Below, one piece after another: positions 168 through 51,179 of a stretch of DNA of 64,000 nucleotides (position 1 is the first letter of the stretch; every line of letters begins with the position of its first letter). The position numbers and the translations under genes are program-made. The notes under the pieces are model-generated. The model made no database searches. It was not told the DNA's origin and saw only the letters and a program-made list of their open reading frames with translations. The DNA is from Fidelibacterota bacterium UBA6531 (GTDB taxonomy: Bacteria > Fidelibacterota > Marinisomatia > Marinisomatales > TCS55), in NCBI GenBank assembly GCA_002436185.1, contig DJKX01000049.1, positions 14,088 to 78,087 on the forward strand. The letters run 5' to 3'.

Positions 168-197
168 TTGACACTTGGATAGAGTTGGAAGTAAACT
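168..197 (+). promoter_or_regulatory. Candidate sigma70-like promoter of the 250-7852 operon
   Basis: TTGACA at 168-173, 18-nt spacer, TAAACT at 192-197, about 50 nt upstream of the ATG at 250. Motif match only. Confidence 0.3.
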
Positions 198-249
198 CCT
201 CCAGCCAAGTCGGTAGTTCGTCTTGGTCTTGCAAAACCGAGGTAAATAA

Positions 250-1440
250 ATGAACATAAAAGCGTTGTTTAAATACACACTTATTATACTAAGTATTATA
301 GCTTATAACCCCACCCTATTTGCAAAAGATTTCAAGATAAAAGGCACAGTTTTGGATGCTGATGGTGAAAAAGTTGGCGGAGCCACAGTTTTGCTGCTCA
401 CATCAGACGGTGTTGAATCTCAACGCACGGAAACCGCTAAGCCAAAAATAGCAGTGTTGGCAAAAATAGGATTAGGTGGGGGCTCATTTAAATTTAAAGA
501 TGTTCTTCCGGGTGATTATACATTGAAAATAGATGGAGGAGCAAAAGGGGCAGTCAATATGCCCATTACAGTATCGGATGATGATTTAGATGATTTAGAA
601 CTTGTATTGTCAGCAAAAGCAAAAATTAAAAAAGAAGTTGTGTTAAAAAGTGATGGGAAAGAACCAGACAAAGTTATTGAAATTCCTGAAGACGCCACGG
701 ATGCAGGCAGTGACGCAGCATATGTAACAACAGAATTAAGCTTTGAATTAAAGAAGCTTTCTGCTGAAGTAAAACATCTTAATTCCGAACTGGAAGACTT
801 GAAAGCTTTAAGTAAAATGTGGATAAACCCTCTGGCTATTTATTCAAAAGAAATTATTTTACAAAATGGCAGTACAGTATTTGGAAAAATTGTTTATCAA
901 GATGAAGAAACGTTAAAAGTTGAAACTCTCTTAGGATATTTAATTATTGAACGTAAAAATATTGTACGGGTTATTGATAATGTTGTTACTGAAGAAACTC
1001 AAGAATATGTTCCAGAACAAATTCGTGACAGTTATACCCCACCGCCCATGCCAAAACTGGCAGAACCCAAATATACTTCTGCTGATCCATTAAGCCGGGA
1101 AGCCGGAAAAAGATATTCTGCAAATTGTGTTCTGGTTGGCAACATAAGCGAGCGAAAAGATAACCAGGGAGCAATTATTTTTACAGGTGAGGTTAAAAAC
1201 ATTGGCGGTCGCCGTGCGGATTTTGTGAAAGTAGATTTTGTATTTCGCAAAAACTGGAGCGGAGAAACAAAAACGCTCACCACATTTGTACGCGGAACAT
1301 ACCACACCTTCGACTCTGGCATCACAACAGATGCCACTTTACTCCCTGGGGCGGTTGGAGCATTTGAATTATTTGTTCCCAATGATTTTGGGTCTTTCAT
1401 CGGCTATTCCTATGTCATAGATTGGGAAGAATATCAATAA
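250..1440 (+). CDS. Secreted protein: signal peptide, carboxypeptidase-regulatory-like Ig-fold domain, coiled coil, beta-rich C-terminal domain (gene 1 of the stator-rotor operon)
   Basis: 396-aa ORF with GAGGT 6 nt upstream of the ATG. Hydrophobic N-terminus LIILSIIAYNPTLFA. KIKGTVLDADGEKVGGATVLLL...PGDYTLKI resembles the CarboxypepD_reg beta-sandwich. Heptad stretch ELSFELKKLSAEVKHLNSELEDLKAL. Domain calls by eye. Confidence 0.7.
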   Translation: MNIKALFKYTLIILSIIAYNPTLFAKDFKIKGTVLDADGEKVGGATVLLLTSDGVESQRTETAKPKIAVLAKIGLGGGSFKFKDVLPGDYTLKIDGGAKGAVNMPITVSDDDLDDLELVLSAKAKIKKEVVLKSDGKEPDKVIEIPEDATDAGSDAAYVTTELSFELKKLSAEVKHLNSELEDLKALSKMWINPLAIYSKEIILQNGSTVFGKIVYQDEETLKVETLLGYLIIERKNIVRVIDNVVTEETQEYVPEQIRDSYTPPPMPKLAEPKYTSADPLSREAGKRYSANCVLVGNISERKDNQGAIIFTGEVKNIGGRRADFVKVDFVFRKNWSGETKTLTTFVRGTYHTFDSGITTDATLLPGAVGAFELFVPNDFGSFIGYSYVIDWEEYQ

Positions 1441-2333
1441 TGTCGGCGGAATCATTTTACCGCCGGGTTTTATTTATATTAGGAATAATCTTTTTTCTGA
1501 TTATTCCTATCAATGGGCAACAGCAATCCTCCCGCCTATCGGACGTTTTTCTCCTAGATTTAGGCATTGTTATTGAACCAACAGCAGGAAACGAATCTTA
1601 CAGTCGATTAATTGAAAGCCCATCAAATGAAGTAGCAATAAGAATTAAACAAGTAAAAAGTGGAACGACAGATTATTTATCTAATCAAAAGCTGCTGGTT
1701 GCAATTGAACAAATAAACTCACGGATTATTAGCTTGGAAACATCATTGCAAACCGAACTAATAGCTTTGAAATCTGAAAATACTGAATTGAAAGGATTGC
1801 TTGCTGCATCTATACCTGTTTTAGAAAAACCGTCCAGACCAAGAGTTTCTTTAAGAGTTGATGAACCGCAAACCCTTGAAAATTTGGTTCTTGTGGAGCT
1901 ACCGGTTATAAAAAGCATTGCTCTGGTACAACCAGATCCTTTTATAGAAAATTTTGACGATAATATATATATGACAGGCATGTACGCATATCAATGTGGC
2001 AACTTTGCCACAGCGCTCCACTGTTTTGACAATCTTAATCTGCAATCAGCAAAAATTGAACAAGTAGAAAACATTCTTTATTGGACTGCAGACATATATT
2101 TGCAAATCCGTGATTATGACAATGCTTTAACCACTTTGGACAAACTTTTGGAATATAAAAAATCTGATATGATAGATGATGCCCTGGTAAAAAAAGGATT
2201 GATGTATAAAAAACTGGGCAGTATAGATTTAGCGATGAATACATTTAAAAAGGTTGTTGTGGGACATCCGGACAGTGAATATTCCCGTTTAGCAGCACTT
2301 GAGATAAAACGAGGGGAAATGCTTTTCCAGTGA
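1440..2333 (+). CDS. Membrane-anchored coiled-coil plus C-terminal TPR protein (CpoB/YbgF-like architecture; gene 2 of operon)
   Basis: ATG at 1440 overlaps the upstream TAA (TAATG); the ORF-track start at 1422 is a non-ATG extension. N-terminal hydrophobic helix VLFILGIIFFLIIPI, heptad region LLVAIEQINSRIISLETSLQTELIALKSENTELKGLL, and TPR-like helices in the last ~130 aa (YMTGMYAYQCGNFATALHCF..., YWTADIYLQIRDYDNALTTL..., VKKGLMYKKLGSIDLAMNTF...). Confidence 0.7.
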   Translation: MSAESFYRRVLFILGIIFFLIIPINGQQQSSRLSDVFLLDLGIVIEPTAGNESYSRLIESPSNEVAIRIKQVKSGTTDYLSNQKLLVAIEQINSRIISLETSLQTELIALKSENTELKGLLAASIPVLEKPSRPRVSLRVDEPQTLENLVLVELPVIKSIALVQPDPFIENFDDNIYMTGMYAYQCGNFATALHCFDNLNLQSAKIEQVENILYWTADIYLQIRDYDNALTTLDKLLEYKKSDMIDDALVKKGLMYKKLGSIDLAMNTFKKVVVGHPDSEYSRLAALEIKRGEMLFQ

Positions 2334-3748
2334 AAAAATTTATAAATATAGTATTAGTATTTTCTTTTGTCTTGATATCAATATTAAGTGGCGCATCTCG
2401 CATAGCGTATACCCGCCCGGGGTTTATGATGAAAATCCCCACATCCAGCATGAGAAAAGCACCGTATTTATTCCGCACTGGATTTGGTGTAGAATTACAT
2501 CGTTTTGATCCTTTTAACTCTGCTCAAGGCATCTATTTTGATATGGAACTGGGAAAAAATTTTACATTTGGATTTTCTTCGGTGCAAACTGCCGATAGTA
2601 CAGCACCGGCCCTTTTAGGTAAAACGGGTTATACCCCCCCAGTAGAATTTGGTTTTCATTTGCAGCAACGTGTATACACTTATAATAATGTATCACTTTC
2701 GCTTGGTTTACAAGATATTGTTTTTCAAAACGCAGAAAGTGGTGATGGAGGTTTAAGTCTAGATCCCGAACAGCTATCGTTTTTTGTTGTTGTTAGCAGT
2801 GAAAAAGATTTGGGTAAATATCATTTAAATACCTTTATGGGGTTTGGTTCGGGAGGTTTTGCGCCGACAGATACAATTAACACTTCAGTTGTTGAGGGTT
2901 CAACATCACCGGACACAGAGACGACGACCAATGAGGGCACCAAATCAGGTGTGTTTATGGGCGTCATTATGAATACACCATATCTTAATAAATGGGGTGG
3001 AATAGATATTGTGGGTGAATTCGACGGGACAGGCATCAATGTGGGACTCCGCATCCCCCTTACCTCGGATTATCGCCTGAACTTAGGATTCACCCACATA
3101 GAAAAATTGCCGGACTGGAAATCAAGATACTGGGAAGGCCATCCGGGTGTCACGTTAGGGTTTGATATGGCAGTGCCTCGAGGAATAAAAAGTATCCCTA
3201 GCGGTTCAGGGGGGCCATCTCCTTTCCCCGGAAGCCAATTGAAATTACCAGCTACGGGACAATATGAATCATTATCATCATCAATGGACTCTACTTTGTC
3301 TATGGCTGATTTTGCAGTACACACTGTTCGGGATTCCATGATTATGTTAAAAAATGAAATGCGTAATCTCATGGTCCAATTGGCTTCTATGGAACAACAG
3401 TCTCAATTTTTGGAAGATTCATTACTTTCGATGAAATTAAGTCGCAATGTTGGTGAAAAAAATATGAACAAAGCCATGCGTCACTTATCAAAATCACTAC
3501 GCTATTTTTATGCGGGTGATTATCGAGCTGCTTTACAGGAAGTAGAATCAGCTCTGGATTTGAATCCAAATATGGCCTTGGCTTATGCACGGCGCGGATC
3601 GGTTTATTATAAACTGGGCGACATTCAACGAGCGACAATTAACTGGAATTTAGCATTGCGAATGGATCCTGAATATGACGATGTCCGTAATATCTTAAAA
3701 GCCCTGCATGAAAACCGTTTAAAATCCACGAGGGTAGTAAAGGAGTAA
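2330..3748 (+). CDS. Envelope protein: signal peptide, beta-barrel-like N-terminal half, G/S/P linker, coiled coil, C-terminal TPR (gene 3 of operon)
   Basis: 472-aa ORF with a GTG start overlapping the upstream stop (GTGA). The N-terminal ~280 aa show alternating hydrophobic/polar strands typical of OM beta-barrels (FTFGFSSV, VEFGFHLQ, VSLSLGLQ, INVGLRIPL, YRLNLGFTH). Then come the linker SIPSGSGGPSPFPGS, a heptad region MIMLKNEMRNLMVQLASMEQQSQFLEDSLLSM, and a TPR (FYAGDYRAALQEVESALDLNPNMALAYARRGSVYYKLGDIQRATINWNLALRMDP). Confidence 0.7.
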   Translation: MKKFINIVLVFSFVLISILSGASRIAYTRPGFMMKIPTSSMRKAPYLFRTGFGVELHRFDPFNSAQGIYFDMELGKNFTFGFSSVQTADSTAPALLGKTGYTPPVEFGFHLQQRVYTYNNVSLSLGLQDIVFQNAESGDGGLSLDPEQLSFFVVVSSEKDLGKYHLNTFMGFGSGGFAPTDTINTSVVEGSTSPDTETTTNEGTKSGVFMGVIMNTPYLNKWGGIDIVGEFDGTGINVGLRIPLTSDYRLNLGFTHIEKLPDWKSRYWEGHPGVTLGFDMAVPRGIKSIPSGSGGPSPFPGSQLKLPATGQYESLSSSMDSTLSMADFAVHTVRDSMIMLKNEMRNLMVQLASMEQQSQFLEDSLLSMKLSRNVGEKNMNKAMRHLSKSLRYFYAGDYRAALQEVESALDLNPNMALAYARRGSVYYKLGDIQRATINWNLALRMDPEYDDVRNILKALHENRLKSTRVVKE

Positions 3749-3753
3749 AAAAT

Positions 3754-4536
3754 ATGGATATTGCAACATTAGTAGGAATTTTTTTAGGGTTGGGATCCAT
3801 TTTTGGAGGTATCTTTTTAGCAGCTTCTGCTGCTAATGCCAGCATGGGCGGATTTGTATCACCATCAAGCTTCGCAATTGTGTTTGGTGGAATGGTTGCG
3901 TCTGTTTCAGTTGCTTTTCCCTTGTCAGATGTACTTAAGCTGGGCGCTGCAATGGGCGCTGTTTTTAAAGGTGGGAAGCTTAAACTTGGCGTGGTGGTAG
4001 ATGATGCCGTGGAAGCAGCAGATGTAGGTAGAAAAGGGGCTGCTGAACTTGAAAAATCAGTAGATAGCATCAAAAATCCATTTTTCAGGGACGGCGTTCA
4101 GATGGTTGTAGATGGTTATTCTTTGGAAGAGTTGACAGAAATCTTGGAAACCCGTATTGAATACCGTGAGGTTCGTGAAAAAACACAAGCGGGTCTATTT
4201 AAATCAATGGGCACAATGGCTCCCGCTTGGGGTATGATTGGAACATTAATCGGTTTGGTAATTATGTTATCCGGCTTTGGCGGTGAAGGCGGAGCTGATT
4301 CGCTTGGCCCCGGTATGTCAGCTGCGCTAATCACTACTTTCTATGGTGCTGTTTTCGCTAATTTATTTTTTCTACCTATGGGTGAAAAATTAAACACAAG
4401 AATTGCATTTACCAGCACAATGCAAGCAATGTTAGTCGAAGCTGCACGATTGGTTCACCAGAAAAAACACCCGTTAATCGTTAGGGAAAAATTAAATTCT
4501 TTTATTCCACCAAAAGAGTGGAAGAAGGAAGAATAA
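3754..4536 (+). CDS. motA: Flagellar-type stator protein MotA/PomA (proton or sodium channel A subunit)
   Basis: 260 aa with AAAGGAG SD upstream. It has four hydrophobic segments with a large cytoplasmic loop between TM2 and TM3. MotA/PomA-like motifs are present: IKNPFFRDGVQMVVDG, MAPAWGMIGTLIGL, ALITTFYGAVFANLFFLPMGEKL, and the C-terminal REKLNSFIPP. It is longer than ExbB/TolQ and has a different topology (compare the ExbB at 17990-18613). Confidence 0.85.
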   Translation: MDIATLVGIFLGLGSIFGGIFLAASAANASMGGFVSPSSFAIVFGGMVASVSVAFPLSDVLKLGAAMGAVFKGGKLKLGVVVDDAVEAADVGRKGAAELEKSVDSIKNPFFRDGVQMVVDGYSLEELTEILETRIEYREVREKTQAGLFKSMGTMAPAWGMIGTLIGLVIMLSGFGGEGGADSLGPGMSAALITTFYGAVFANLFFLPMGEKLNTRIAFTSTMQAMLVEAARLVHQKKHPLIVREKLNSFIPPKEWKKEE

Positions 4537-4539
4537 TTC

Positions 4540-5343
4540 ATGCCAAAAACACCCGGAGAAAAAAAAGCTTATAAAGCAGGAATTACAAAAGGTAAAACCC
4601 TTGTAGATGAAGGGCTCCCGGGATGGTTTGGTACATTTGCAGATATGATGACACTGTTGTTTGCTTTTTTTGTTTTATTAGCAGCTATTTCAACCATTGA
4701 CCCTGTGAAATTACAGGAAATGGCTGACGGCATGGGAAAATCTGTTGGTAGTAAAATTAAGAAGGAAAGCCAAGCAATGTCATTGTCAGACATTAAAAAA
4801 GCAGTAAAAAAGATGATTGAAGAAATGAAAGTAGACTCGGAATCAGGCGAAACACCCGTAGATGTTACAACTGGTCCCAAAGGTGTTACGATAGGTATTT
4901 CTTCTGATATTAGTTTTGGTTCTGGGTCGGCTAAAACAAAACCACAGATAGTTGATATTTTAACAAAAATCGTTCCAACGATTGAAAAATCATATTTCCA
5001 AGTAGCGGTTGAGGGTCATACTGATAATGAAAAACTACCTGAAAAACTACAGGAAAAATATCCGACAAATTGGGAATTATCTTCAGCCAGGGCATCAGCT
5101 GTAGTGAGAGAATTAATTAAGCTAGGTGTTAACCCCATCCGGTTGGAAGCTGTTGGTTATGGTGAGTTTGCACCGAGAGACAAGGCCTCGCATGAATTAG
5201 TTACTAATGAAGTAATATTAAAATATAATACAACCGTTCAACAAAAAGCCAGAAACAGAAGGGTGGAAATAACTTTCTTGGCACCCAACTATAGTAGGCC
5301 CGGTGGTGGTGAATCTGAAACTAAATCAAGCGAAAAAACATAA
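4540..5343 (+). CDS. motB: Stator protein MotB (OmpA-like peptidoglycan-binding C-terminal domain)
   Basis: 267 aa, starting 3 nt after motA. A single TM carries the conserved channel Asp (WFGTFADMMTLLFAFFVLLAAIS). The OmpA/MotB C-domain reads VEGHTDNEKL...NWELSSARASAVVRELIKLGV...AVGYGEFAP...NRRVEI. Confidence 0.85.
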   Translation: MPKTPGEKKAYKAGITKGKTLVDEGLPGWFGTFADMMTLLFAFFVLLAAISTIDPVKLQEMADGMGKSVGSKIKKESQAMSLSDIKKAVKKMIEEMKVDSESGETPVDVTTGPKGVTIGISSDISFGSGSAKTKPQIVDILTKIVPTIEKSYFQVAVEGHTDNEKLPEKLQEKYPTNWELSSARASAVVRELIKLGVNPIRLEAVGYGEFAPRDKASHELVTNEVILKYNTTVQQKARNRRVEITFLAPNYSRPGGGESETKSSEKT

Positions 5344-5374
5344 TAGATAGATTTTGATAAGCAAAGGAGCTATC

Positions 5375-6910
5375 ATGAGGAAGTATAACATATTTCAGAA
5401 ACAATTTTTATTGGCTGTATTCTGCGTAAGCATAGCTTGGGGACAAGGCAGTGGTTACCTTGCACAGAAATTGATGGTAGAAAACGACTTGCGACAACGT
5501 ATCACAGATGCTTTGTCTAAAATAATTGATGACAGGAAATATGTCATTGATGTGGATGCAGATATTGAAATCAGCGGGGGAACCGAAGAACAAATTACAA
5601 TTCTTGATGAAAGTCAACAAGCCACCCAAAGGGCAGAAGATGTATCTACTGCCATTGAAGGTGCGCTCGACCAATCTGTGGAAAGCCAAAGCGGGGGTGT
5701 TACCAGTGGATTACCAATTCCCGGTTTCGAATTTGAATCAGATGCTGGCAGTTCTGCGCCCGCGACCAATGATGTTCTTTCTTCATCAACAGTATCCATC
5801 CCGGTTCCATCTAAAAGTGGACAAGGAACGGTGCTTTCGCGGACAGTGACCAGTAAGCATCCCTCTACAGCCTACGTTAAAAAATTGGAAATAAGTATTA
5901 TTCTCCAAGAAGGAGCACCCCCTGAGCTTATAGAAAATATTCGACAAGTGGTAATGGTAGCTGCTCGTTTTAATCGCGCCAGAGGCGATGCATTGAGCAT
6001 AATGACAGCCACGTTTAAAGAACGACGAGATGAAAAAACGGCCGAACAGATATTACTTAAAAATATTGCTGAAAAGCTGGAATCTCTGGAACAACAACAG
6101 TCAGGCGATGATTTTGTGAACTGGAAAGAAGAATTGGATAGCTATAAAACACAAGAAGAAGAACGTCGCACACAGGATAAAATGTATTTTCAACAACAAT
6201 TAACCAATTTGGAATCAGCAGCAAGGGACAGAGCATATCAGGCAGAAAAAAGAGATATTTTGCGTCGTGACTCACTAAAACTTCAAGCCCTGAATAATGA
6301 AATTTCCAGCTTGAAGTCCATGATATCATCCGATGAAATTTCTGGTGATGAAGTCGATCAAGCCCAAAGTGCTATGGGTGAAAAAATGAGTGAAAAAGAA
6401 ACTCTGGACGCTCAAATAGCGGAAAAAATGGCCATGTTGGATGCAGTCCAATCAGACTTAGATCGTATGAATGACGGCAGATCATCCACTATGATGATTC
6501 TATTTGTATCTTTACTAGGCGCATTGGTTATTGTGCTCGTTGTAGTATTGGTCATTATGATAATGGGTAATAGGCAGAAACAACAACTTCCACCGCCTTG
6601 GATGTATCCTCCAAGACCGCGGAAAAAAAAAAGTGAAAATAACACAATGACAACTCCTCAACCTATGGTTCCTCCCCAAACGGTTAATCCGATAGAAGAT
6701 GCTGGGGTTTTACAAAGCGAAATATCAGACATGCGCCAGGCAGTTGTTTCCATGAGTGTAAGCCAGCCGAATACAGCCACACGAATTGTAAAAGAATGGA
6801 TGGAAGATGAAGCACCTCCGCCAGAACCGGAACCTGTTGTAGCGGCAGCTCCTACAGAACAAGAAGACGGTGGTAAAAAGAAAAAGAAAAAAAAGAAGAA
6901 GAAAAAATAA
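5375..6910 (+). CDS. Atypical FliF-like ring protein: signal peptide, RBM3-like domain only, ~155-aa coiled coil, TM helix, Pro-rich cytoplasmic tail with FliG-binding-like motif, poly-Lys C-terminus
   Basis: AAGGAG lies 5 nt upstream of the ATG at 5375; the ORF-track start at 5354 is a TTG extension. VENDLRQRITDALSKIIDDRKYVIDVDADIEISGG and KKLEISIILQEG...ENIRQVVMVAARFNRARGDALSIMTATF resemble the two halves of FliF RBM3. The TM is MMILFVSLLGALVIVLVVVLVIMIMG. The C-terminal IVKEWMEDE resembles the FliF C-terminal helix that binds FliG. Homology judged by eye. Confidence 0.6.
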   Translation: MRKYNIFQKQFLLAVFCVSIAWGQGSGYLAQKLMVENDLRQRITDALSKIIDDRKYVIDVDADIEISGGTEEQITILDESQQATQRAEDVSTAIEGALDQSVESQSGGVTSGLPIPGFEFESDAGSSAPATNDVLSSSTVSIPVPSKSGQGTVLSRTVTSKHPSTAYVKKLEISIILQEGAPPELIENIRQVVMVAARFNRARGDALSIMTATFKERRDEKTAEQILLKNIAEKLESLEQQQSGDDFVNWKEELDSYKTQEEERRTQDKMYFQQQLTNLESAARDRAYQAEKRDILRRDSLKLQALNNEISSLKSMISSDEISGDEVDQAQSAMGEKMSEKETLDAQIAEKMAMLDAVQSDLDRMNDGRSSTMMILFVSLLGALVIVLVVVLVIMIMGNRQKQQLPPPWMYPPRPRKKKSENNTMTTPQPMVPPQTVNPIEDAGVLQSEISDMRQAVVSMSVSQPNTATRIVKEWMEDEAPPPEPEPVVAAAPTEQEDGGKKKKKKKKKKK

Positions 6911-6919
6911 GGCAAAGCC

Positions 6920-7852
6920 ATGATTACAGATATTAACAGACTTTCAGGCCTTCAAAAGGCAGCAATACTGTTCTCTGTTTTAGGAGAAGGCCTTGCGCTA
7001 ACACTGGTAAAAGAATTGTCTAAAACAGATATACGCAAAGTAAGAGCCTCTATGCGCGAGTTAGACAATGTATCTTTTGCCGTTAAGAAAAGAGTGATGG
7101 AAGAATTTTACTTCAGTTTTGTAAGTGAAAAATTTCATGAGGAAGAATCAGATGAACCTAAAAAACCGTTTAATTTTTTAGAGGAAATAACCGATGAACA
7201 ACTTATTGCACTGGTTAAACCGGAAGCTGATTCAGTAGCAGCGATTGCTTTGGCTCAAATATCGGGTGAACGCCGCAATAAAATAATGAGCCGCTTACCC
7301 TCTGAATCAAAAGGGAACATCATTATGGAAATGGGTAATTTGAATGAAATTCCCTTGGAAGCCATTGTTAATGTGGCAAATGATCTTCATAAGAAATCAA
7401 AATTTCTACCCAAAACAATTGCATTCTCCCGTGGTGGAGGAAAAGATGTTGCAGAAATTTTGGGCGGTTTAAGCTCCGATGAAGAAACTCAATTTCTCGA
7501 AAATATTTCCAGAGAAAACCCGGATCTTGCTGCAGAAGTAAAAAAGTATCACCTAACATGGGATGTTTTGTTTGAAATTTTGCCAGACAGTACAATACGT
7601 GATTTGATGAATTCTGTTGAGTTAGATACTATTGCACTGGCCCTAAAAGGAATGCCGGAAGACATTGTAAATCGAGTAATTGAAAACTTGCCAAAGAAGA
7701 AACAGGCTATGTTTGAACCGGTTGAAGGTGCCGTTGCAAAGAGAGAAGTGGACGGCGCTCGCAAAGATATTGTTGCTGCTGCCAGACAATTGGAAAAAGA
7801 TGGAGCCTTCAATCTGGCAGACTTGGTTGGCGGCGGAGAAATGGTAGAATAA
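6920..7852 (+). CDS. fliG: FliG-like rotor/switch protein (N, middle and C domains present)
   Basis: 310 aa. The N-domain is LSGLQKAAILFSVLGEGLALTLVKELSKTDIRKV. The middle domain is ITDEQLIALVKPEADSVAAIALAQISGERRNKIMSRLP...IIMEMGNL. The C-domain is VLFEILPDSTIRDLMNSVELDTIALALKGMPEDIVNRVIENLPKKKQAMF...EVDGARKDIVAAARQLEKDGAF. This matches the FliG_N/M/C layout and the FliG C-terminal signature. Confidence 0.8.
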   Translation: MITDINRLSGLQKAAILFSVLGEGLALTLVKELSKTDIRKVRASMRELDNVSFAVKKRVMEEFYFSFVSEKFHEEESDEPKKPFNFLEEITDEQLIALVKPEADSVAAIALAQISGERRNKIMSRLPSESKGNIIMEMGNLNEIPLEAIVNVANDLHKKSKFLPKTIAFSRGGGKDVAEILGGLSSDEETQFLENISRENPDLAAEVKKYHLTWDVLFEILPDSTIRDLMNSVELDTIALALKGMPEDIVNRVIENLPKKKQAMFEPVEGAVAKREVDGARKDIVAAARQLEKDGAFNLADLVGGGEMVE

Positions 7853-7882
7853 CCCAAATAATAATCGACCGTTTTTTAATAA

Positions 7883-7917
7883 ACAGCCTTCGCTAATTGA
7901 GAAGGCTGTTTTATTTT
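7883..7917 (+). terminator. Rho-independent terminator closing the 250-7852 operon
   Basis: ACAGCCTTC (7883-7891), 9-nt loop, GAAGGCTGT (7901-7909), then TTTATTTT. It forms a perfect 9-bp stem 30 nt after the fliG stop. Confidence 0.8.
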
Positions 7918-16549: not shown

Positions 16550-17179
16550 TTATTTCAATCTAAAATTCACTGGGATGGAAATCCAAACACCCACAGCTCT
16601 TTCCCGCTGTTTAGCGGGTCTAAAGCGCGTTTTACGAATTGCTGCTATTGCTGCTTCGTCCAATCCGGTATTTGGGATTCCTTTTAAAATGGACGTTTCT
16701 TTTACCCGACCTTTTTTATCAACGAAGACTTGTACAATAACAGTTCCTTCAATTCCAGCTTCCTGGGCAATCTCGGGATATTTTGGACGAATAGGCGTAA
16801 GAGGTTTAGGTGGATCATCATAGGGTATAAATTTTACACGAGGTCCTTCAGGTGGAGGAGGAGGAGCATCCCAAGCCTCAAAGCTTTCCAAGTCCGTTTC
16901 TTCAATTGTTAAATCATCTGCTAAATCTTCGTCTTCCGATTCAATGGGCACGGAAGGACGAGCAGGAGGCGGAGGCAAATCTATTTGTTGAGTCAGAGGA
17001 ATGTCAATTTGTTCAATAATGATTTGATCAGCATCTTCCAATACAACTACTTCAAAACTCCGTGGAATAAATAAAAATCCAAATGTAATCAGTAAAATTC
17101 CAAATAATCCCGTAACACGCACTATAACAGGATAATTGAATTTTAAGATAGGGGAATATTTGTCCATGGGATTATTCAA
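16550..17179 (-). CDS. tonB: Energy transducer TonB
   Basis: 209 aa with an N-terminal anchor helix, a Pro-rich spacer (LPPPPARPSVP, APPPPPEGP), and the TonB C-terminal domain PKYPEIAQEAGIEGTVIVQVFVDKKGRV...FRPAKQRERAVGVWISIPVNFRL. Confidence 0.9.
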   Translation of the reverse strand: MNNPMDKYSPILKFNYPVIVRVTGLFGILLITFGFLFIPRSFEVVVLEDADQIIIEQIDIPLTQQIDLPPPPARPSVPIESEDEDLADDLTIEETDLESFEAWDAPPPPPEGPRVKFIPYDDPPKPLTPIRPKYPEIAQEAGIEGTVIVQVFVDKKGRVKETSILKGIPNTGLDEAAIAAIRKTRFRPAKQRERAVGVWISIPVNFRLK

Positions 17180-17582
17180 CTGCTGTTTTTGTCGAATAAT
17201 TCAATTTTAAGGCATCAGCTTTTCTAAGTTCATTGTGAATTTCAGATATGAGTCCCATTTTTGCAGATTTATCTGCTTTTAACGAAACAGTCAATAAAGG
17301 GTCTGCAGCGCGCACTTCGTACATAATATGGCGAACATTATCAACGCTGTGTAGTTTATCCTGAATAGAGACCATTCCTTCTTTTGAAATCCAAATATGA
17401 GAGGTGTGCCGCTTTGATTTTAGTTTTTCAATTCGTTTCGCCCTTGGGAGTTCTATAGGAAGGCCGGAATATTCCCGTAGGACAGTTGTAACCATGAAAA
17501 ATATCAACAGCATGAAAATGATATCCGGCATAGATGCGGTTGGTATATCGGTTGATATTTGAGTTTTACGCCTGAGCTTCAT
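17172..17582 (-). CDS. exbD: Biopolymer transport protein ExbD/TolR
   Basis: 136 aa. IPTASMPDIIFMLLIFFMVT matches the ExbD/TolR TM signature. Overlaps tonB by 8 nt. Confidence 0.9.
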   Translation of the reverse strand: MKLRRKTQISTDIPTASMPDIIFMLLIFFMVTTVLREYSGLPIELPRAKRIEKLKSKRHTSHIWISKEGMVSIQDKLHSVDNVRHIMYEVRAADPLLTVSLKADKSAKMGLISEIHNELRKADALKLNYSTKTAVE

Positions 17583-17977
17583 TAATCGCTCTCTGCAATA
17601 GAAATCCGTTTAGCGTTTGCCATTTTGAGTTGGTCAATAACACTCACGTAATCACTATATTTTGTTTTTTCATGTGCCTTTACAGATATGATCAACTTAT
17701 CATTTTCAGTAATCCTACGCCGAATTTCTTTGTTGAGATCTCTTGTTTTTACAGGTTCTCCTCCCAGCAAAACATTGCCACTGGAGTTAATTAGACAATT
17801 TAGGATATTATCCTTTTTAATCTCTATTTCTTCTCCTTCAGCTGGTAACACTATTCCTAACCCTTTATCCATATCAATTGTAGTGGTTACCAGAAAAAAT
17901 ATAAGAAGCAAAAAAGCAATATCTGCCATTGAAGCTGTAGGTATTTCTCCGCGTTTAAAGCGGCGTTTTTTCTTCAT
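17582..17977 (-). CDS. exbD: Biopolymer transport protein ExbD/TolR (second copy)
   Basis: 131 aa. IPTASMADIAFLLLIFFLVTT. The tandem exbD arrangement is common in FCB-group tonB operons. Confidence 0.9.
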   Translation of the reverse strand: MKKKRRFKRGEIPTASMADIAFLLLIFFLVTTTIDMDKGLGIVLPAEGEEIEIKKDNILNCLINSSGNVLLGGEPVKTRDLNKEIRRRITENDKLIISVKAHEKTKYSDYVSVIDQLKMANAKRISIAESD

Positions 17978-17989
17978 CGAAAAAGTATA

Positions 17990-18613
17990 TTATTTCTTTT
18001 TATTTGTTTCCATCTCATAGAGATGGTCAACGAGTTGAATGGAGCGTTCTTCCATATCCAGAACCAGTTTATCAATTTGGGCTACAAAAACATTCTGGAA
18101 AATTTGAATAATCATAGCTACGATTAATCCAAAGGCGGTTGTCAACAGTGCTTGTGAAATACCCCCAGCTACAACTGCCGGCGATATATCATCTGCTGCC
18201 GCAATGGCATCAAATGCATTTACCATACCCGCAACTGTACCAGTAAACCCAAGCATAGGCGCAATGGTAATAACTGCATTCAACCAGATCATGTTTTTTT
18301 CCAGAAAAGACATTTCAAGTGATCCTGCATTTTGGATTGCTTTTTCAACTTCTGCAAGACCGCGATGCATTCTGGAAAGCCCGGCATGAAAAATTTCAGC
18401 GACAGGACCGTGTGTTTTTTCACACAATTCGAGCGTTGAGTCTATTCCATCATTATCTAATGAACTGTTTACATCTTTAAAAAATTTCTCTGCATTTATT
18501 GATGACATTATCAGTGAATAAAAACGTTCACCAACAAATGCAAGGCCAAAAACAAGTGATATTAATATGGGCCACATGAAAGGTCCACCATTTACGAAAT
18601 ATTCGACTAGCAT
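17990..18613 (-). CDS. exbB: MotA/TolQ/ExbB proton channel family protein (ExbB)
   Basis: 207 aa with three TM segments. GFTGTVAGMVNAF and ALLTTAFGLIVAMI are typical of ExbB/TolQ. First gene of the exbB-exbD-exbD-tonB operon. Confidence 0.9.
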   Translation of the reverse strand: MLVEYFVNGGPFMWPILISLVFGLAFVGERFYSLIMSSINAEKFFKDVNSSLDNDGIDSTLELCEKTHGPVAEIFHAGLSRMHRGLAEVEKAIQNAGSLEMSFLEKNMIWLNAVITIAPMLGFTGTVAGMVNAFDAIAAADDISPAVVAGGISQALLTTAFGLIVAMIIQIFQNVFVAQIDKLVLDMEERSIQLVDHLYEMETNKKK

Positions 18614-21526: not shown

Positions 21527-23584
21527 ATGAACCCAAATAGATTGTGTATATACGCAGTTTTTCTGCATGTAGGGCTCCACGCAGGATCTATGAATATTAG
21601 TGGTCCCTTTGATCTCAATAACAATACTCTAGATGAAATTCTTTTATTTTCTGAAAATTATATCCGTTATGTTGAGGTTCAACTCGACAGTTCACATGTA
21701 TTAATGTGGGAAAGCAATCCTGAAAGTTATATAATTAAAGATGCCATTCTATATGATATTAATAATGACGGTAAAACAGAATTAATCATTTTAGCAGACT
21801 ACTTACCGGGAAAGCGGATTAATAGGAGCAAGTGGCTGCATCTATTTTCTTGGTCAGATTCTCTTTTTATTCCCCAAACAATTGAAATAGATAATGGTGA
21901 ATTATTGCACCCCAACCATTTCGATGTTGATGATCAGTCCGGAATTTTATCGATAGCCGTTGGCAGTCCTTATAGAGCGGCCGTACTATTAGAGGTTGAC
22001 AGCGAAGAGAAAGGTTTGGTTGGAAACACTGTGAATATTGAATTACCGAATATGTTGCACAATGGTTTCGGTCCTGTTTTTTCCAGCTTCATGAATTTGA
22101 ATGGCGAAGCGCACTTGGCAGTATTTAGCTTGGAAAAAGATACTTTGAAAACAATACTATTTAGGGCGGATGAAAAGGCTGTGATCGTAGCAGAAAACGC
22201 ATTACACCTTAATAGCGCATTCATATTGTTAGGTTCTGCAATCCAAAAAACAGATTTGGATAACAATCAACGTGAAGAACTTCAGTTACCTTTTGAAAGT
22301 GGCGAAGTTTTAACATTGGAGTTCGTTGACAGTGCATTGGTATTGTCCGAAAGTCCTTTTAATCGACAAAACCTTTTTAATCTTCCGGATAGCGCAGATA
22401 GTGAATCAATAAATCAACTTCTGTCAAATAGAATAAAAGTGGGTTTGGATGTTTTAGATAATGAACCACATCCAGATTTTGTAATTGCTATCATTCCTAA
22501 CGACACATTAAGATTGGGAGATACGCTCAATTATAAAGCAGCTATGGACACATCCACAGGATTTTATAGTTTTCATTGGTTATCAAAACCTCCGGCAAAC
22601 GCCTATTTTAATCCCAGTTCAGGGACGATTTCATGGATACCCAGAAGAGAAAATATTGGCGTTCATGAATTCAAATTTTATACAGAACAGTGGTTAAATG
22701 ATGAATTGGTATCAGATGAAGATGAACTGGGTGATCGACATAGAATTTTGCCTGTTTTGGAAGAGTTGGAACAGTCCTATGCTGTCATTGTGGTTGATAC
22801 AACAAAACCTCCCATTATTTATGTTCCACCGCCCTATGAACCTTATAGTGTTATGGTACACACACCCAATAAAACAGCTGGGGCCGAACGTTTTCTTTTT
22901 GATGGCGTGCCTCCTTTTAGCGCAATGGTTGATGAAATAAATATTCCTAAATATCCATCTTCTTCCCATTCAATATTTGCGAATCTTGGTAGAGTCAATT
23001 TTGACAAGCATGTGGATTTTTCTTATACATCTAACAAAGACAGCAGCAACAACATGATGACTCTAAGATTAAGTCATAAATTGACTGACAATGTAATATA
23101 TGCGAAAATCGAACCCTTTTTAGATTCGCTGAATATAACAGCGAACTTGAATCCCTCAAACTGGCGCGCGAATCTGCAGCATTATCCCATGTATGAATTT
23201 GAAGGATTTCCTGAATCCATGCGCTTGGATGACAACGAAAAAGGAATTTCATTATACACACGTGAAGCAGGACAAAAAATCAAAAAAAATTCTTATATTT
23301 CTGTATTAACCCCGTTATCAGACAACAGGCATAGTCTATCAATCTACATGAAAGCAATAGAATTATGGAATATTACAGGAGATGTAAAAATAGACAGCCT
23401 TGGAAATAAAACAGTTAACACTACAATTAAGTTTTCAGGTGAATTTTCTCCTTATAGTATAAATGCGGAAATGTATACGGATGAAGAGCTTGCCATGCGG
23501 TCAAAAGAAATGAAATTTAAAATTCTAGAGTTTATGGGTGTAGACAGCGTTGTTGTAGATTCTGCCGGTACAAATATACGATGA
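21527..23584 (+). CDS. FG-GAP/VCBS-repeat protein with He_PIG-like Ig domain (paralog of the next gene)
   Basis: 685 aa. Contains the Ca-loop-like YDINNDGKTELIIL and the Ig-repeat YSFHWLSKPPANAYFNPSSGTISWIPRRENIGVHEF. The N-terminal module is similar to that of the downstream ORF. Confidence 0.65.
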   Translation: MNPNRLCIYAVFLHVGLHAGSMNISGPFDLNNNTLDEILLFSENYIRYVEVQLDSSHVLMWESNPESYIIKDAILYDINNDGKTELIILADYLPGKRINRSKWLHLFSWSDSLFIPQTIEIDNGELLHPNHFDVDDQSGILSIAVGSPYRAAVLLEVDSEEKGLVGNTVNIELPNMLHNGFGPVFSSFMNLNGEAHLAVFSLEKDTLKTILFRADEKAVIVAENALHLNSAFILLGSAIQKTDLDNNQREELQLPFESGEVLTLEFVDSALVLSESPFNRQNLFNLPDSADSESINQLLSNRIKVGLDVLDNEPHPDFVIAIIPNDTLRLGDTLNYKAAMDTSTGFYSFHWLSKPPANAYFNPSSGTISWIPRRENIGVHEFKFYTEQWLNDELVSDEDELGDRHRILPVLEELEQSYAVIVVDTTKPPIIYVPPPYEPYSVMVHTPNKTAGAERFLFDGVPPFSAMVDEINIPKYPSSSHSIFANLGRVNFDKHVDFSYTSNKDSSNNMMTLRLSHKLTDNVIYAKIEPFLDSLNITANLNPSNWRANLQHYPMYEFEGFPESMRLDDNEKGISLYTREAGQKIKKNSYISVLTPLSDNRHSLSIYMKAIELWNITGDVKIDSLGNKTVNTTIKFSGEFSPYSINAEMYTDEELAMRSKEMKFKILEFMGVDSVVVDSAGTNIR

Positions 23585-51074: not shown

Positions 51075-51096
51075 AATTAAATCCAAACTAACCCTT

Positions 51097-51167: not shown

Positions 51168-51179
51168 CAAAAAAATATT

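What the first reader, a model, noticed from the sequence alone, without database searches (positions are those of the whole stretch)
168..7917. Orphan stator-rotor operon: MotA-MotB, an RBM3-only FliF-like protein and FliG, co-transcribed with three coiled-coil/TPR/beta-barrel envelope proteins and no other flagellar genes in 64 kb
Seen in the sequence:
- Seven co-directional ORFs (250-7852) have junctions of -4 to +31 nt. They are bracketed by a candidate promoter (168-197) and a strong terminator (7883-7917).
- ORFs 4-7 are flagellar-motor homologues.
- The MotA/PomA-type stator subunit has NPFFRDGVQMVVDG, APAWGMIGT and FFLPMGEKL. The last two correspond to the E. coli Pro173/Pro222 regions.
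- MotB has the channel Asp (TFADMMTLLFAFF, the E. coli Asp32 equivalent) and an OmpA-like peptidoglycan anchor.
- A FliF-like ring protein and a three-domain FliG complete the set.

Not seen anywhere in the window: fliE/H/I/J/M/N/P/Q/R, flhA/B, rod, hook, flagellin or che genes. The operon is flanked by a peptide ABC importer and sdhCAB.

ORFs 1-3 encode exported or envelope proteins: an Ig-like beta-sandwich, coiled coils, TPR and a beta-barrel-like domain.

Established knowledge: in canonical loci fliF-fliG are followed by fliH-fliI-fliJ, and FliG acts with FliM/FliN.

Inference: this may be a self-contained PMF-driven stator-rotor device coupled to an envelope-spanning scaffold. Its architecture is reminiscent of Tol-Pal CpoB, Agl-Glt or GldLM machines. 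It may not be part of a flagellum.
Basis: partly seen in the sequence, partly recalled or inferred. Interest (0 to 1): 0.88.

Follow-up and report, generated by a model that had tools for sequence, protein, structure and literature searches.

The report
Orphan flagellar motor core in SAR406
A seven-gene operon found in every Marinimicrobia (SAR406) genome fragment examined encodes the torque-making core of a flagellar motor (MotA/MotB, FliG, a cut-down FliF) together with three unrelated envelope proteins and no other flagellar part nearby, so it is probably a proton-driven rotary machine that does something other than spin a flagellum.

Summary
Seven co-directional, tightly packed ORFs (250-7852) end in a strong terminator. 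They encode three exported envelope proteins, a full-length flagellar-type MotA/MotB stator, a FliF-like protein with only the RBM3 ring domain, and a three-domain FliG.

The window comes from Marinimicrobia (SAR406/Fidelibacterota). The same gene order recurs in all 80 GTDB species loci fetched and in three very divergent relatives.

No other flagellar or chemotaxis gene occurs in the 64 kb window or within ±10 kb of the cassette in about 83 loci (1.44 Mb).

Stator-rotor residues are conserved: MotB Asp32, MotA Pro173/Pro222/Glu98 and the RK pair, and a near-invariant FliG torque helix. The features that tie FliF and FliG to the rest of a flagellum are gone. FliF has no RBM1/RBM2. In FliG's EHPQR motif, which binds FliM, His, Gln and Arg are each replaced in 79 of 79 sequences.

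ORF3 is modelled as an outer-membrane β-barrel with a periplasmic helix and TPR. ORF2 resembles CpoB.

Best reading (about 0.6): a self-contained, PMF-driven rotor-stator coupled to an envelope-spanning scaffold, derived from a flagellar motor.

Not tested: whether a full flagellar regulon lies elsewhere in these genomes. I found no published description.

The parts
168..197 (+). Candidate sigma-70-like promoter (TTGACA-18-TAAACT), 53 nt upstream of ORF1
   Evidence: matches 10 of 12 positions. Such matches are as frequent as in shuffled sequence (26 found, 24.4 expected), and the promoter consensus of this phylum is unknown. Weak evidence.
250..1440 (+). ORF1 (396 aa), an exported multi-domain protein. 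Order of parts: signal peptide, Ig-like CarboxypepD_reg domain, coiled coil, small β domain (Lepto_7_Nterm-like), Pro-rich linker, C-terminal β domain (weak FxLYD-like).
   Evidence: Found in every locus with enough upstream DNA, at 54-92% identity. No relative among solved structures by sequence.
1440..2333 (+). ORF2 (297 aa from the ATG at 1440, or 303 aa from the TTG at 1422): N-terminal hydrophobic anchor or signal, coiled coil, and a CpoB/YbgF-like TPR domain.
   Evidence: TPR_6 4e-9; tol_pal_ybgF 6.6e-11, 42.8 bits against a 90.1 cut-off. Least conserved gene of the cassette (24-79% identity) and truly absent in one subclade.
2330..3748 (+). ORF3 (472 aa): signal peptide, about 12-stranded outer-membrane β-barrel (residues 46-283), long periplasmic helix (321-394), and C-terminal TPR.
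   Evidence: AlphaFold2 on 24 homologues, pLDDT 58.7. Foldseek matches outer-membrane barrels: PorV 6h3i_F at 6.4e-6, then FapF, OmpG, NanC and OMPLA. TPR by Pfam and PDB. 54-95% identity across loci.
3754..4536 (+). MotA/PomA-type stator A subunit (260 aa).
   Evidence: Pfam MotA_ExbB 5.4e-28. NCBIfam MotP 2.1e-50 and PomA 1.7e-44, against TolQ 0.011. Aligns end to end with solved flagellar MotA 9lu9 (5.7e-39) and PomA 8bri (2e-30). Glu98, Pro173 and Pro222 are each kept in 70 of 70 sequences, and the preceding Arg-Lys pair in at least 95%.
4540..5343 (+). MotB-type stator B subunit (267 aa) with channel Asp, plug and OmpA-like peptidoglycan-binding domain.
   Evidence: MotB_plug 3.6e-15 and OmpA 6.6e-13. 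NCBIfam MotD 9.5e-42. The Asp32 equivalent is kept in 71 of 72 sequences; the exception is a gap.
5375..6910 (+). FliF-like ring protein (511 aa from the ATG at 5375). Order of parts: cleavable signal peptide, RBM3-like domain with an insertion carrying the invariant motif GLPIPGF-F, about 150 residues of periplasmic coiled coil, one TM helix, a conserved PPPWMYPPRPRKKK motif, two cytoplasmic helices, and a poly-Lys tail.
   Evidence: PF08345 1.5e-6. A profile matches the RBM3 of Vibrio FliF 8z5s at E = 0.009. AlphaFold2 pLDDT 60.5. The top three Foldseek hits are FliF MS/S-rings (8z5v at 9.3e-3, then 7d84 and 8zds). The family alignment shows the shared architecture.
6701..6805 (+). Cytoplasmic helix pair of the FliF-like protein (VLQSE..DM.QAVVSMSV.QP..A..IVK.W), proposed to bind FliG_N.
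   Evidence: 20 of 40 columns are invariant. It aligns in position with the FliG-binding C-terminus of Vibrio FliF. A profile of the tail alone finds no FliF in the PDB. So this role is inferred, not shown.
6875..6907 (+). Poly-lysine C-terminal tail (11 Lys; mixed AAA/AAG codons) of the FliF-like protein.
   Evidence: A terminal Lys run of at least 3 is present in 60 of 72 family members. Function unknown.
6920..7852 (+). FliG-like rotor protein (310 aa) with N, M and C domains.
   Evidence: Pfam FliG_N, FliG_M and FliG_C all above gathering. T. maritima FliG 1lkv 1.5e-20 and A. aeolicus 3hjl over the full length. TIGR00207 scores 112.6 bits, below its 226.7 cut-off. EHPQR is degenerate: His, Gln and Arg are each 0 of 79. 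The GG linker is invariant.
7688..7729 (+). FliG torque-helix equivalent, LP[QK]KKQAM[YF]EPVEG.
   Evidence: Near-invariant in 79 sequences. The E. coli K264 and R281 positions are Lys in 79 of 79. It is 3 residues shorter than in E. coli. D288/D289 are replaced by Glu266 and Glu269.
7881..7917 (+). Intrinsic terminator: 10-bp G+C-rich stem, 9-nt loop, T-run.
   Evidence: ΔG -19.3 kcal/mol, z = -5.0, and 0 of 200 shuffles fold as well. The simple scan missed it because its loop limit is 8 nt.

Best explanation
The operon encodes a self-contained, ion-driven rotor-stator machine derived from a flagellar motor but no longer part of a flagellum.

Shown:
- MotA and MotB are full-length flagellar-class stator subunits with the ion-path residues, plug and peptidoglycan anchor intact.
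- FliG keeps its three domains and a near-invariant charged 'torque helix'.
- The FliF-like protein keeps an RBM3-type ring domain, one TM helix and a conserved cytoplasmic tail.
- All seven genes are co-inherited across Marinimicrobia.

Inferred mechanism:
1. The FliF-like protein oligomerises into a membrane ring through RBM3.
2. Its cytoplasmic helix pair recruits FliG_N, which builds a FliG ring without FliM or FliN.
3. Peptidoglycan-anchored MotA5B2 units dock on FliG_C, unplug, and use the proton or sodium gradient to turn the ring, probably in one direction only because no switch proteins are present.
4. The roughly 150-residue periplasmic coiled coil and RBM3 crown of the FliF-like protein carry that motion or force across the periplasm to ORF1, the CpoB-like ORF2 and the outer-membrane barrel/TPR protein ORF3.

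The output is therefore an outer-membrane or cell-surface process such as surface-protein movement, secretion or envelope maintenance. It is not a rod, hook and filament. Which output it is remains unknown.
For: Identity of the motor parts.

Conserved functional residues.
- MotB Asp32 in 71 of 72 sequences. MotA Pro173, Pro222 and Glu98 each in 70 of 70, plus the RK pair.
- FliG K264 and R281 positions are Lys in 79 of 79, and the torque helix LPxKKQAM[YF]EPVEG is near-invariant.

Loss of flagellum-specific interfaces.
- No RBM1/2 (PF01514) hit. Only about 25 residues lie between the signal peptide and RBM3.
- In EHPQR, His, Gln and Arg are each 0 of 79.
- MFXF is changed to [HR][LI]T[FW].
- All four motor proteins fall below the NCBIfam flagellar equivalog cut-offs.

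Strict synteny. The order ORF1-ORF2-ORF3-motA-motB-fliF'-fliG holds in 80 GTDB species loci. It also holds in three distant members with only 24-46% identity. ORF1 and ORF3 are as conserved as MotA and FliG.

No flagellar neighbours. No FlhA, FlhB, FliI, FliP, FliQ, FliR, FliM, FliN, FliH, rod, hook, flagellin or Che hit in 1.44 Mb, comprising the window and 82 loci. None in the window by Pfam.

Envelope-spanning parts. ORF3 is an outer-membrane barrel with a periplasmic helix and TPR. ORF2 is CpoB-like. The FliF-like protein has long periplasmic helices, and its best fold matches are FliF rings.

Operon unity. Junctions are -4 to +31 nt and a strong terminator follows fliG.

Organism. The only cultured member of the phylum is described as non-motile (PMC11652737).
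Against: - Whole genomes could not be scanned. A complete flagellar regulon elsewhere is not excluded.
- The RBM3 assignment rests on modest statistics: Pfam 1.5e-6, PDB profile 0.009, Foldseek 9e-3.
- The proposed FliG-binding tail is not detectably homologous to FliF C-termini when searched alone.
- Both AlphaFold models are of low to moderate confidence (pLDDT 60.5 and 58.7; pTM 0.25 and 0.42), so domain arrangement is unreliable. This includes whether the coiled coil is a hairpin or an extended stalk.
- No complex prediction, expression data or imaging is available.
- The wider neighbourhood (aldo-keto reductase, Smr, GCS2, sdhAB) is also syntenic in many loci. Part of the conservation therefore reflects general genome collinearity.
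- ORF2 is dispensable in one subclade.
- The acidic pair D288/D289 of the torque helix is not conserved in register.
Confidence: 0.6

Rival explanations
1. It is a PMF-energised envelope system of the Tol-Pal or TonB kind rather than a freely rotating motor. The FliF-like/FliG ring is a static or stalled docking platform. MotAB pulls on it to drive conformational work in ORF1-3, for example outer-membrane tethering, constriction or lipid homeostasis.
For: ORF2 has CpoB/YbgF architecture and a profile similarity. ORF3 is an outer-membrane protein with periplasmic TPR. MotB is peptidoglycan-anchored. The cassette was present in every Marinimicrobia locus examined, including contigs from 1.2-1.8 Mb assemblies, which suits a housekeeping role.
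Against: MotA is of the flagellar class, not the TolQ/ExbB class: MotP 2e-50 against TolQ 0.011. It has a plug, which is reported as specific to flagellar stators (PMC12505986). The FliG torque helix and the stator charges are conserved, as expected for real torque generation. TolA, TolB and Pal are not in the cassette.
Confidence: 0.2
2. It is a dispersed piece of an ordinary flagellum, and the remaining genes lie elsewhere in the genome.
For: All four motor proteins are flagellar homologues. Some bacteria scatter their flagellar genes. Whole genomes were not searched.
Against: FliF lacks RBM1/RBM2, which in MS-rings surround the export gate. This role is from established knowledge of FliF structures. 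The FliM-binding residues of FliG are replaced in 79 of 79 sequences. fliH, fliI and fliJ never follow fliG in about 83 loci. Three non-flagellar envelope genes are always co-transcribed. The motor proteins score far below the flagellar equivalog cut-offs. The cultured phylum member is non-motile.
Confidence: 0.08
3. It is the motor of a surface-motility or secretion apparatus linked to the type IX secretion system, working like GldLM/PorLM in Bacteroidota.
For: Marinimicrobia belong to the FCB group, and SAR406 genomes carry many T9SS C-terminal-domain proteins (PMC5596340). Por_Secre_tail proteases flank the cassette in two distant loci. The best fold match of the ORF3 barrel is PorV. ORF2 has a weak PorW/SprE TPR hit at 2.2e-5.
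Against: The PorV match is generic: all outer-membrane barrels score similarly, with TM-scores of 0.3-0.57. The PorW hit covers TPR only. There is no sequence relation to GldL, GldM, GldK or GldN. Whether these genomes have their own GldLM could not be tested.
Confidence: 0.1
4. It is a decaying evolutionary relic with no function, or an anti-phage Zorya-like module.
For: The flagellar repertoire is reduced. MotB matches ZorB models at 2e-15.
Against: All seven ORFs are intact across 80 or more species, with identities of 33-97% and near-invariant functional residues. There is no ZorA hit and there are no Zorya effector genes. The ZorB hit is generic MotB similarity.
Confidence: 0.02

Closest known systems
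Bacterial flagellar motor core (MS-ring FliF, FliG ring, MotA5B2/PomA5B2 stator)
   Same: MotA, MotB, FliG and FliF(RBM3) are homologous. The ion-path residues, plug, OmpA-like anchor, stator-rotor charged residues, GG linker of FliG and the fliF-fliG gene adjacency are all conserved.
   Different: No RBM1/RBM2 in FliF. A periplasmic coiled coil of about 150 residues is inserted between RBM3 and the TM helix. The FliG EHPQR (FliM-binding) residues are lost and the torque helix is 3 residues shorter. No fliH/I/J, fliM/N, export-gate, rod, hook or filament genes are nearby. The genes are co-transcribed with three non-flagellar envelope proteins.
Reduced flagellar basal bodies of Buchnera aphidicola and orphan flagellar genes of Chlamydia
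   Same: A subset of flagellar genes is retained in non-swimming bacteria, presumably for another purpose.
   Different: Those systems keep the type III export apparatus and lose the motor or filament (from PMC8109811 and my own knowledge). Here the opposite subset, the torque-generating rotor and stator, is kept and no export genes are seen.
Tol-Pal system with CpoB (YbgF)
   Same: A 5:2 PMF motor in the inner membrane is linked to outer-membrane and TPR proteins. ORF2 has the coiled-coil plus TPR layout of CpoB and a sub-threshold profile match to it.
   Different: The stator is MotAB-class, not TolQR-class. There is no TolA, TolB or Pal. A FliF/FliG ring is present, and Tol-Pal has none.
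GldLM/PorLM motor of gliding motility and type IX secretion; AglRQS-Glt of Myxococcus
   Same: The concept is the same: an ion-driven inner-membrane motor whose periplasm-spanning part transmits force to an outer-membrane complex. The phylogenetic neighbourhood (FCB group) is shared with GldLM.
   Different: No sequence homology to GldL, GldM, GldK, GldN or the Glt proteins. Those machines have no FliG/FliF-type large rotor.
Zorya (ZorAB) anti-phage system
   Same: A MotAB-like 5:2 motor used outside flagella.
   Different: No ZorA-type long tail and no ZorC, ZorD or ZorE effectors. PADLOC gives only generic MotB-to-ZorB similarity.

Membership tests
Flagellar stator (MotAB/PomAB, 'FIT' class of PMC12505986) | A subunit: four TM helices with an expanded cytoplasmic torque-generating domain; conserved Pro173 and Pro222; charged R90 and E98 equivalents. 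| tested here: met
   Full-length alignment to solved MotA 9lu9 (5.7e-39) and PomA (2e-30). Pro173, Pro222 and Glu98 are each 70 of 70, and the RK pair is at least 95%.
Flagellar stator (MotAB/PomAB, 'FIT' class of PMC12505986) | B subunit: channel Asp32, plug region and OmpA-like peptidoglycan-binding domain. | tested here: met
   MotB_plug 3.6e-15 and OmpA 6.6e-13. Asp32 in 71 of 72.
Flagellar stator (MotAB/PomAB, 'FIT' class of PMC12505986) | Score above the NCBIfam equivalog cut-offs for MotA, PomA, MotP and MotB. | tested here: not met
   Best MotP score is 171.2 bits against a 394 cut-off. Best MotD score is 143.4 against 283.
Flagellar rotor protein FliG | Three domains (N, M, C) with the Gly-Gly linker. 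| tested here: met
   All three Pfam domains are above gathering. FSRGGG is invariant.
Flagellar rotor protein FliG | Charged torque-helix residues (E. coli K264, R281, D288, D289, R297). | tested here: inconclusive
   The K264 and R281 positions are Lys in 79 of 79. D288/D289 fall in a 3-residue deletion with Glu266 and Glu269 nearby. R297 is Pro, Ala, Ser or Val.
Flagellar rotor protein FliG | EHPQR motif of FliG_M, which binds FliM. | tested here: not met
   Glu is kept in 77 of 79. His, Gln and Arg160 are each 0 of 79.
Flagellar rotor protein FliG | TIGR00207 equivalog cut-off. | tested here: not met
   112.6 bits against 226.7.
Flagellar MS-ring protein FliF | RBM3 ring-building domain (PF08345). 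| tested here: met
   29.1 bits against a 23.8 cut-off, E = 1.5e-6; up to 5.7e-11 in relatives. The top three fold matches are FliF rings. Statistics are modest.
Flagellar MS-ring protein FliF | RBM1 and RBM2 (PF01514) and two TM helices flanking the periplasmic region. | tested here: not met
   No PF01514 hit. The N-terminal hydrophobic segment looks like a cleavable signal peptide ending just before the invariant Gln31, and RBM3 starts about 5 residues later. TIGR00206 scores 17.3 against 129.75.
Flagellar MS-ring protein FliF | C-terminal cytoplasmic helices that bind FliG_N. | tested here: inconclusive
   A conserved helix pair lies at the right position and has a V-V/I-K-x-W motif like FliF. 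A tail-only profile finds no FliF. Binding was not tested.
Complete bacterial flagellum | Type III export apparatus (FlhA, FlhB, FliPQR, FliHIJ), FliM/N, rod, hook and filament genes in the same genome. | not testable with these tools
   None in the window and none within ±10 kb in 82 related loci. Whole genomes cannot be fetched.
Tol-Pal system | TolQ, TolR, TolA, TolB and Pal plus CpoB. | tested here: not met
   TolQ model E = 0.011. Pal scores only 30.7 bits against the OmpA domain of MotB. CpoB-like ORF2 is sub-threshold at 42.8 against 90.1. No TolA or TolB is present.
T9SS/gliding motor (GldLM-GldKN) | GldL, GldM, GldK and GldN homologues. | tested here: not met
   No such hits in Pfam or NCBIfam for any cassette protein. 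Only a TPR-level PorW/SprE hit at 2.2e-5 and a generic barrel match to PorV.
Zorya anti-phage system | ZorA with a long cytoplasmic tail, ZorB, and ZorC/D/E effectors. | tested here: not met
   PADLOC: no ZorA hit, and only a generic ZorB-to-MotB hit.

The most novel reading that the evidence does not exclude
Marinimicrobia carry a previously undescribed class of rotary envelope machine. A flagellar rotor (FliF-RBM3 ring plus FliG) and its MotAB stator work without any type III secretion apparatus, rod, hook or filament. They are coupled through a periplasmic coiled-coil crown to an outer-membrane barrel/TPR complex. This would be the first natural example of the flagellar torque-generating module working as an independent machine. 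It would be either an exapted remnant or a living analogue of a pre-flagellar stage.
Probability: 0.45. Interest if true: 0.92.

Novelty: new variant of a known kind. Interest (0 to 1): 0.82.

Why it matters
**Flagellar evolution.** Models of flagellar evolution argue over whether sub-assemblies of the flagellum can work on their own. Known reduced systems (Buchnera, Chlamydia, injectisomes) keep the secretion core and drop the motor. A conserved module of stator, FliG and FliF ring without the secretion core would be the missing reciprocal case. It would show that the torque generator is a separable, re-usable machine.

**Classification of stators.** It would challenge the idea that plug-bearing, OmpA-anchored 'flagellar-class' stators are diagnostic of flagella.

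**Metagenomic trait calls.** It warns against scoring motility in metagenomes from fliG or motA alone.

**Ecology.** SAR406 is among the most abundant uncultured bacterial groups in the dark ocean. A machine present in every SAR406 locus examined, with unknown output, is likely to matter for how these cells handle particles, surfaces or their envelope.

**Structure.** The cassette offers a minimal rotor (no FliM, FliN or export gate) for structural study.

Tried and rejected
- **Literature.** Ten full-text searches and five papers read found no description of this cassette and no statement on flagellar genes in Marinimicrobia. One paper says only that Fidelibacter multiformis is non-motile.
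- **Whole-genome test for other flagellar genes.** Not possible. The single genome-contig scan went on mapping the cassette, and the look-up of encoding contigs returns only ±10 kb. Walking a 1.8 Mb contig was not affordable.
- **Tail-only profile of the FliF-like C-terminus against the PDB.** No FliF hit, so I dropped the claim that the tail is demonstrably homologous to the FliG-binding peptide of FliF.
- **ORF1 against PDB sequences.** Nothing found.
- **ORF3 profile against PDB sequences.** Only TPR hits.
- **PF23067 (MG280) on some FliF-like relatives.** A coiled-coil artefact.
- **PADLOC.** Rejects a Zorya reading.
- **Search for the family outside the phylum.** The HMM search of 1.84 billion representatives gave 307 clusters. 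Every named member was Marinimicrobia, except one partial protein on a 2.3 kb 'Gammaproteobacteria' contig and one 2.9 kb 'SAR86' contig, both probably misbinned. Most clusters carry no name, so restriction to the phylum is likely but not proven.
- **Promoter at 168-197.** Not distinguishable from chance.
- **Hairpin or extended stalk for the periplasmic coiled coil.** Cannot be decided from a model with pTM 0.25.

Full report
**1. What is in the sequence**

The region holds seven co-directional ORFs:
- 250-1440
- 1440-2333 (an alternative TTG start lies at 1422)
- 2330-3748
- 3754-4536
- 4540-5343
- 5375-6910 (an alternative TTG start lies at 5354)
- 6920-7852

For the sixth ORF, homologues and a Shine-Dalgarno-like AAAGGAG favour the ATG at 5375. 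Junctions run from -4 to +31 nt.

A hairpin (AACAGCCTTC/GAAGGCTGTT) followed by a T-run lies just after the last stop codon. It folds at -19.3 kcal/mol, z = -5.0, and 0 of 200 shuffles fold as well.

The promoter-like match at 168-197 exists. Such matches are as common here as in shuffled sequence, so it is only a candidate.

**2. Identity of the proteins**

Pfam and NCBIfam give the following.
- ORF4 is MotA_ExbB (5.4e-28). Its best NCBIfam models are MotP (2.1e-50) and PomA (1.7e-44), against TolQ at 0.011.
- ORF5 has MotB_plug plus OmpA.
- ORF6 has YscJ_FliF_C, the RBM3 model (1.5e-6, above gathering), on residues 54-221 and nothing for RBM1/2.
- ORF7 has FliG_N, FliG_M and FliG_C, all above gathering and stronger than MgtE_N.

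All four fall well below the NCBIfam flagellar equivalog cut-offs. NCBI's annotation names reflect this ('FliG C-terminal domain-containing protein').

Against solved structures:
- MotA aligns end to end with flagellar MotA 9lu9 (5.7e-39), C. sporogenes MotA and Vibrio PomA.
- FliG aligns with T. maritima and A. aeolicus FliG (1.5e-20 and 1.8e-19).
- A profile of the FliF-like family weakly hits the RBM3 of Vibrio FliF (E = 0.009).

**3. The envelope proteins**

ORF1 has a signal peptide, an Ig-like CarboxypepD_reg domain (2.1e-7, just under the cut-off), a coiled coil and two small β domains.

ORF2 has a hydrophobic N-terminus, a coiled coil and a TPR domain. Its best specific match is CpoB/YbgF (6.6e-11, sub-threshold).

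ORF3 was modelled with 24 homologues (pLDDT 58.7). The model shows 12 β-strands (46-283), a 74-residue helix and TPR. Foldseek matches are all outer-membrane barrels: PorV at 6.4e-6, then FapF, OmpG, NanC and OMPLA. The fold class is supported. No specific family is.

**4. The FliF-like protein in detail**

Seventeen homologues share one architecture, in this order:
1. A signal peptide ending just before the invariant Gln31.
2. An RBM3-like α/β core split by a variable insertion that carries the invariant motif GLPIPGF-F.
3. About 150 residues of helix.
4. One TM helix.
5. PPPWMYPPRPRKKK.
6. A highly conserved helix pair (VLQSE..DM.QAVVSMSV.QP..A..IVK.W).
7. A Pro/Glu-rich linker.
8. A poly-Lys tail.

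The AlphaFold model has low to moderate confidence (pLDDT 60.5, pTM 0.25). Even so, its three best fold matches among 350,542 PDB chains are FliF MS/S-rings (8z5v at 9.3e-3, 7d84, 8zds). MacA-type α-hairpins come next.

The cytoplasmic helix pair sits where FliF carries its FliG-binding peptide, and it aligns with it inside the whole-protein match. A profile of the tail alone does not find FliF. Binding to FliG_N is therefore an inference.

**5. Origin and distribution**

The FliG-like protein is identical to proteins on Tara and JGI marine contigs, and NCBI assigns it to 'Candidatus Marinimicrobia'.

A scan of one genome per GTDB species found relatives of the FliF-like protein in 128 species. 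The best 80 are all Marinimicrobia, Neomarinimicrobiota or Fidelibacterota MAGs or SAGs, or unnamed bacteria. The one exception is a 2.9 kb 'SAR86' contig.

tblastn of the seven proteins shows the same order in every locus long enough to show it. Identity ranges are:

| Protein | Identity to the window protein (%) |
|---|---|
| ORF1 | 54-92 |
| ORF2 | 24-79 |
| ORF3 | 54-95 |
| MotA | 61-94 |
| MotB | 38-98 |
| FliF-like | 33-91 |
| FliG | 48-97 |

An HMM search of 1.84 billion cluster representatives found 307 clusters. The few that carry names are Marinimicrobia. Three very divergent members still sit in the same cassette: L086 on a 1.8 Mb contig, L087, and L088 from a Marinimicrobia MAG. 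They share 24-46% identity with the window proteins.

Variations seen:
- ORF2 is absent in one subclade.
- L088 has additional TPR genes.
- A TPR lipoprotein of about 190 aa lies upstream in 50 of 52 loci with enough upstream DNA. It is adjacent in 30 of them. In the window's lineage it is separated from the cassette by a peptidase M32 gene.

**6. Is it part of a flagellum?**

*Negative evidence on neighbours.* tblastn with 43 E. coli flagellar and chemotaxis proteins was run against the window plus 82 related loci (1.44 Mb). Only FliG, MotA, MotB and one weak FliF match were found. There was nothing for FlhA, FlhB, FliH/I/J, FliM/N, FliP/Q/R, rod, hook, flagellin or Che proteins beyond chance-level receiver and kinase fragments. 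Pfam scans of every other window ORF of at least 120 aa show housekeeping genes only.

*Evidence from the proteins themselves.* FliF lacks RBM1/RBM2. In FliG (79 sequences) the FliM-binding EHPQR motif keeps Glu in 77 of 79, but His, Gln and Arg160 are each 0 of 79. The MFXF hinge is altered.

*What is kept.* The elements needed for torque are conserved.
- MotB Asp32 in 71 of 72 sequences.
- MotA Pro173, Pro222 and Glu98 each in 70 of 70, with a preceding conserved Arg-Lys as in PomA.
- The FliG K264 and R281 positions as Lys in 79 of 79, within a near-invariant LPxKKQAM[YF]EPVEG helix.

The pattern is selective. Interfaces to the stator are kept, while interfaces to the switch complex and export gate are lost.

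*What could not be done.* I could not scan whole genomes.

**7. Mechanism proposed**

*Shown.* The cassette encodes a flagellar-class stator, a FliG with a conserved stator-facing helix, and a membrane protein with a ring-building RBM3 domain and a conserved cytoplasmic tail. It also encodes an outer-membrane barrel/TPR protein and a CpoB-like protein. All are co-inherited and packed as one operon.

*Inferred.*
1. The FliF-like protein forms a ring.
2. Its tail recruits FliG.
3. MotA5B2 units anchored to peptidoglycan turn this ring using the ion gradient, probably in one direction only.
4. The long periplasmic helices and RBM3 crown transmit motion or force to ORF1-3 at the outer membrane.

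The output is unknown. Candidates are movement or secretion of surface proteins (SAR406 is rich in T9SS-type CTD proteins, PMC5596340, and such proteins flank the cassette in L087 and L088) or envelope maintenance of the Tol-Pal kind.

**8. Rivals**

| Rival | Confidence |
|---|---|
| Stalled, Tol-Pal-like force transducer | about 0.2 |
| T9SS/gliding-linked motor | about 0.1 |
| Dispersed part of an ordinary flagellum | about 0.08 |
| Relic in decay, or Zorya-like defence module | about 0.02 |

The last is rejected by conservation and by PADLOC.

**9. Comparison with known systems**

It works most like the flagellar rotor-stator, and its four motor proteins are homologues of that machine. It fails several defining features of a flagellum: RBM1/2, EHPQR and the equivalog thresholds. 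Others cannot be tested. I therefore do not file it as a flagellum.

It resembles Tol-Pal, GldLM and Agl-Glt only in concept. The known reduced flagellar systems (Buchnera, Chlamydia) keep the opposite subset of genes.

According to PMC12505986, the plug, the OmpA-like domain and the expanded cytoplasmic domain are hallmarks of flagellar stators. This cassette has them in a context that looks non-flagellar.

**10. Verdict**

I found no prior description in the searchable literature.

I rate it a new variant of a known kind, a flagellar-derived rotor-stator with new partners. There is a substantial chance that it is a categorically new rotary envelope machine. Interest is high.

Noticed in passing
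Outside the window: L001 1095-1661 (about 1.7 kb upstream of ORF1); L072 2698-3288: A TPR lipoprotein of about 190 aa on the same strand lies upstream of the cassette in 50 of 52 loci with at least 3 kb of upstream DNA. It is within 400 nt of ORF1 in 30 of them. In the window's lineage a peptidase M32 gene separates it from the cassette. It sits directly upstream in the subclade that lacks ORF2, so it may be an eighth, partly interchangeable component.
   Followed up: partly
window 6875-6907: The FliF-like protein ends in an acidic patch followed by 11 lysines (mixed AAA/AAG codons), 9 nt before the fliG start. A terminal Lys run of at least 3 occurs in 60 of 72 family members. Its function is unknown; binding to membrane lipid or nucleic acid is a guess.
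   Followed up: partly
window 5612-5650 (FliF-like residues about 119-127 in the RBM3 insertion): The motif GLPIPGF-F is invariant inside an otherwise variable, low-confidence insertion. The insertion sits where flagellar FliF carries its β-collar. This is a possible contact site for a partner.
   Followed up: no
window 16550-18613 (- strand): An ExbB-ExbD-ExbD-TonB operon lies next to sdhCAB, so the window holds a second, ordinary 5:2 ion-driven motor. The same sdhAB-TonB neighbourhood follows the cassette even in the very divergent locus L086.
   Followed up: partly
window 21527-27249: A 685-aa protein with no Pfam match is followed, with a 4-nt overlap, by a 1222-aa protein with FG-GAP, He_PIG and bacterial Ig domains. 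This may be a large surface adhesin pair.
   Followed up: no
L087 9535-14175; L088 1504-3111: Proteases with a T9SS sorting domain (Peptidase_C25 or S8 plus Por_Secre_tail) lie immediately beside the cassette in two divergent Marinimicrobia loci. This may be coincidence or a hint at the machine's output.
   Followed up: no
L051, L059, L073, L076, L078, L082: In one subclade ORF1 is followed directly by ORF3, so the CpoB-like ORF2 is truly absent. The FliF-like protein is longer there (519-606 aa).
   Followed up: partly
L086 11499-12432: In the 1.8 Mb long-read contig, fliG is called as two ORFs (184 and 130 aa). This is probably an assembly frameshift rather than a real split.
   Followed up: no
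window 51097-51168: A tRNA-Gln(TTG) sits just upstream of the PRPP synthetase gene. The mechanical ORF call from the TTG at 51096 overlaps it, and the Pfam match begins at residue 34, so the real start is probably downstream.
   Followed up: no
window 53413-55554: A membrane H+/Na+-pyrophosphatase (PF03030, 1.3e-266) is encoded among ribosomal protein genes. This bears on how these cells maintain the ion gradient that the stator would use.
   Followed up: no
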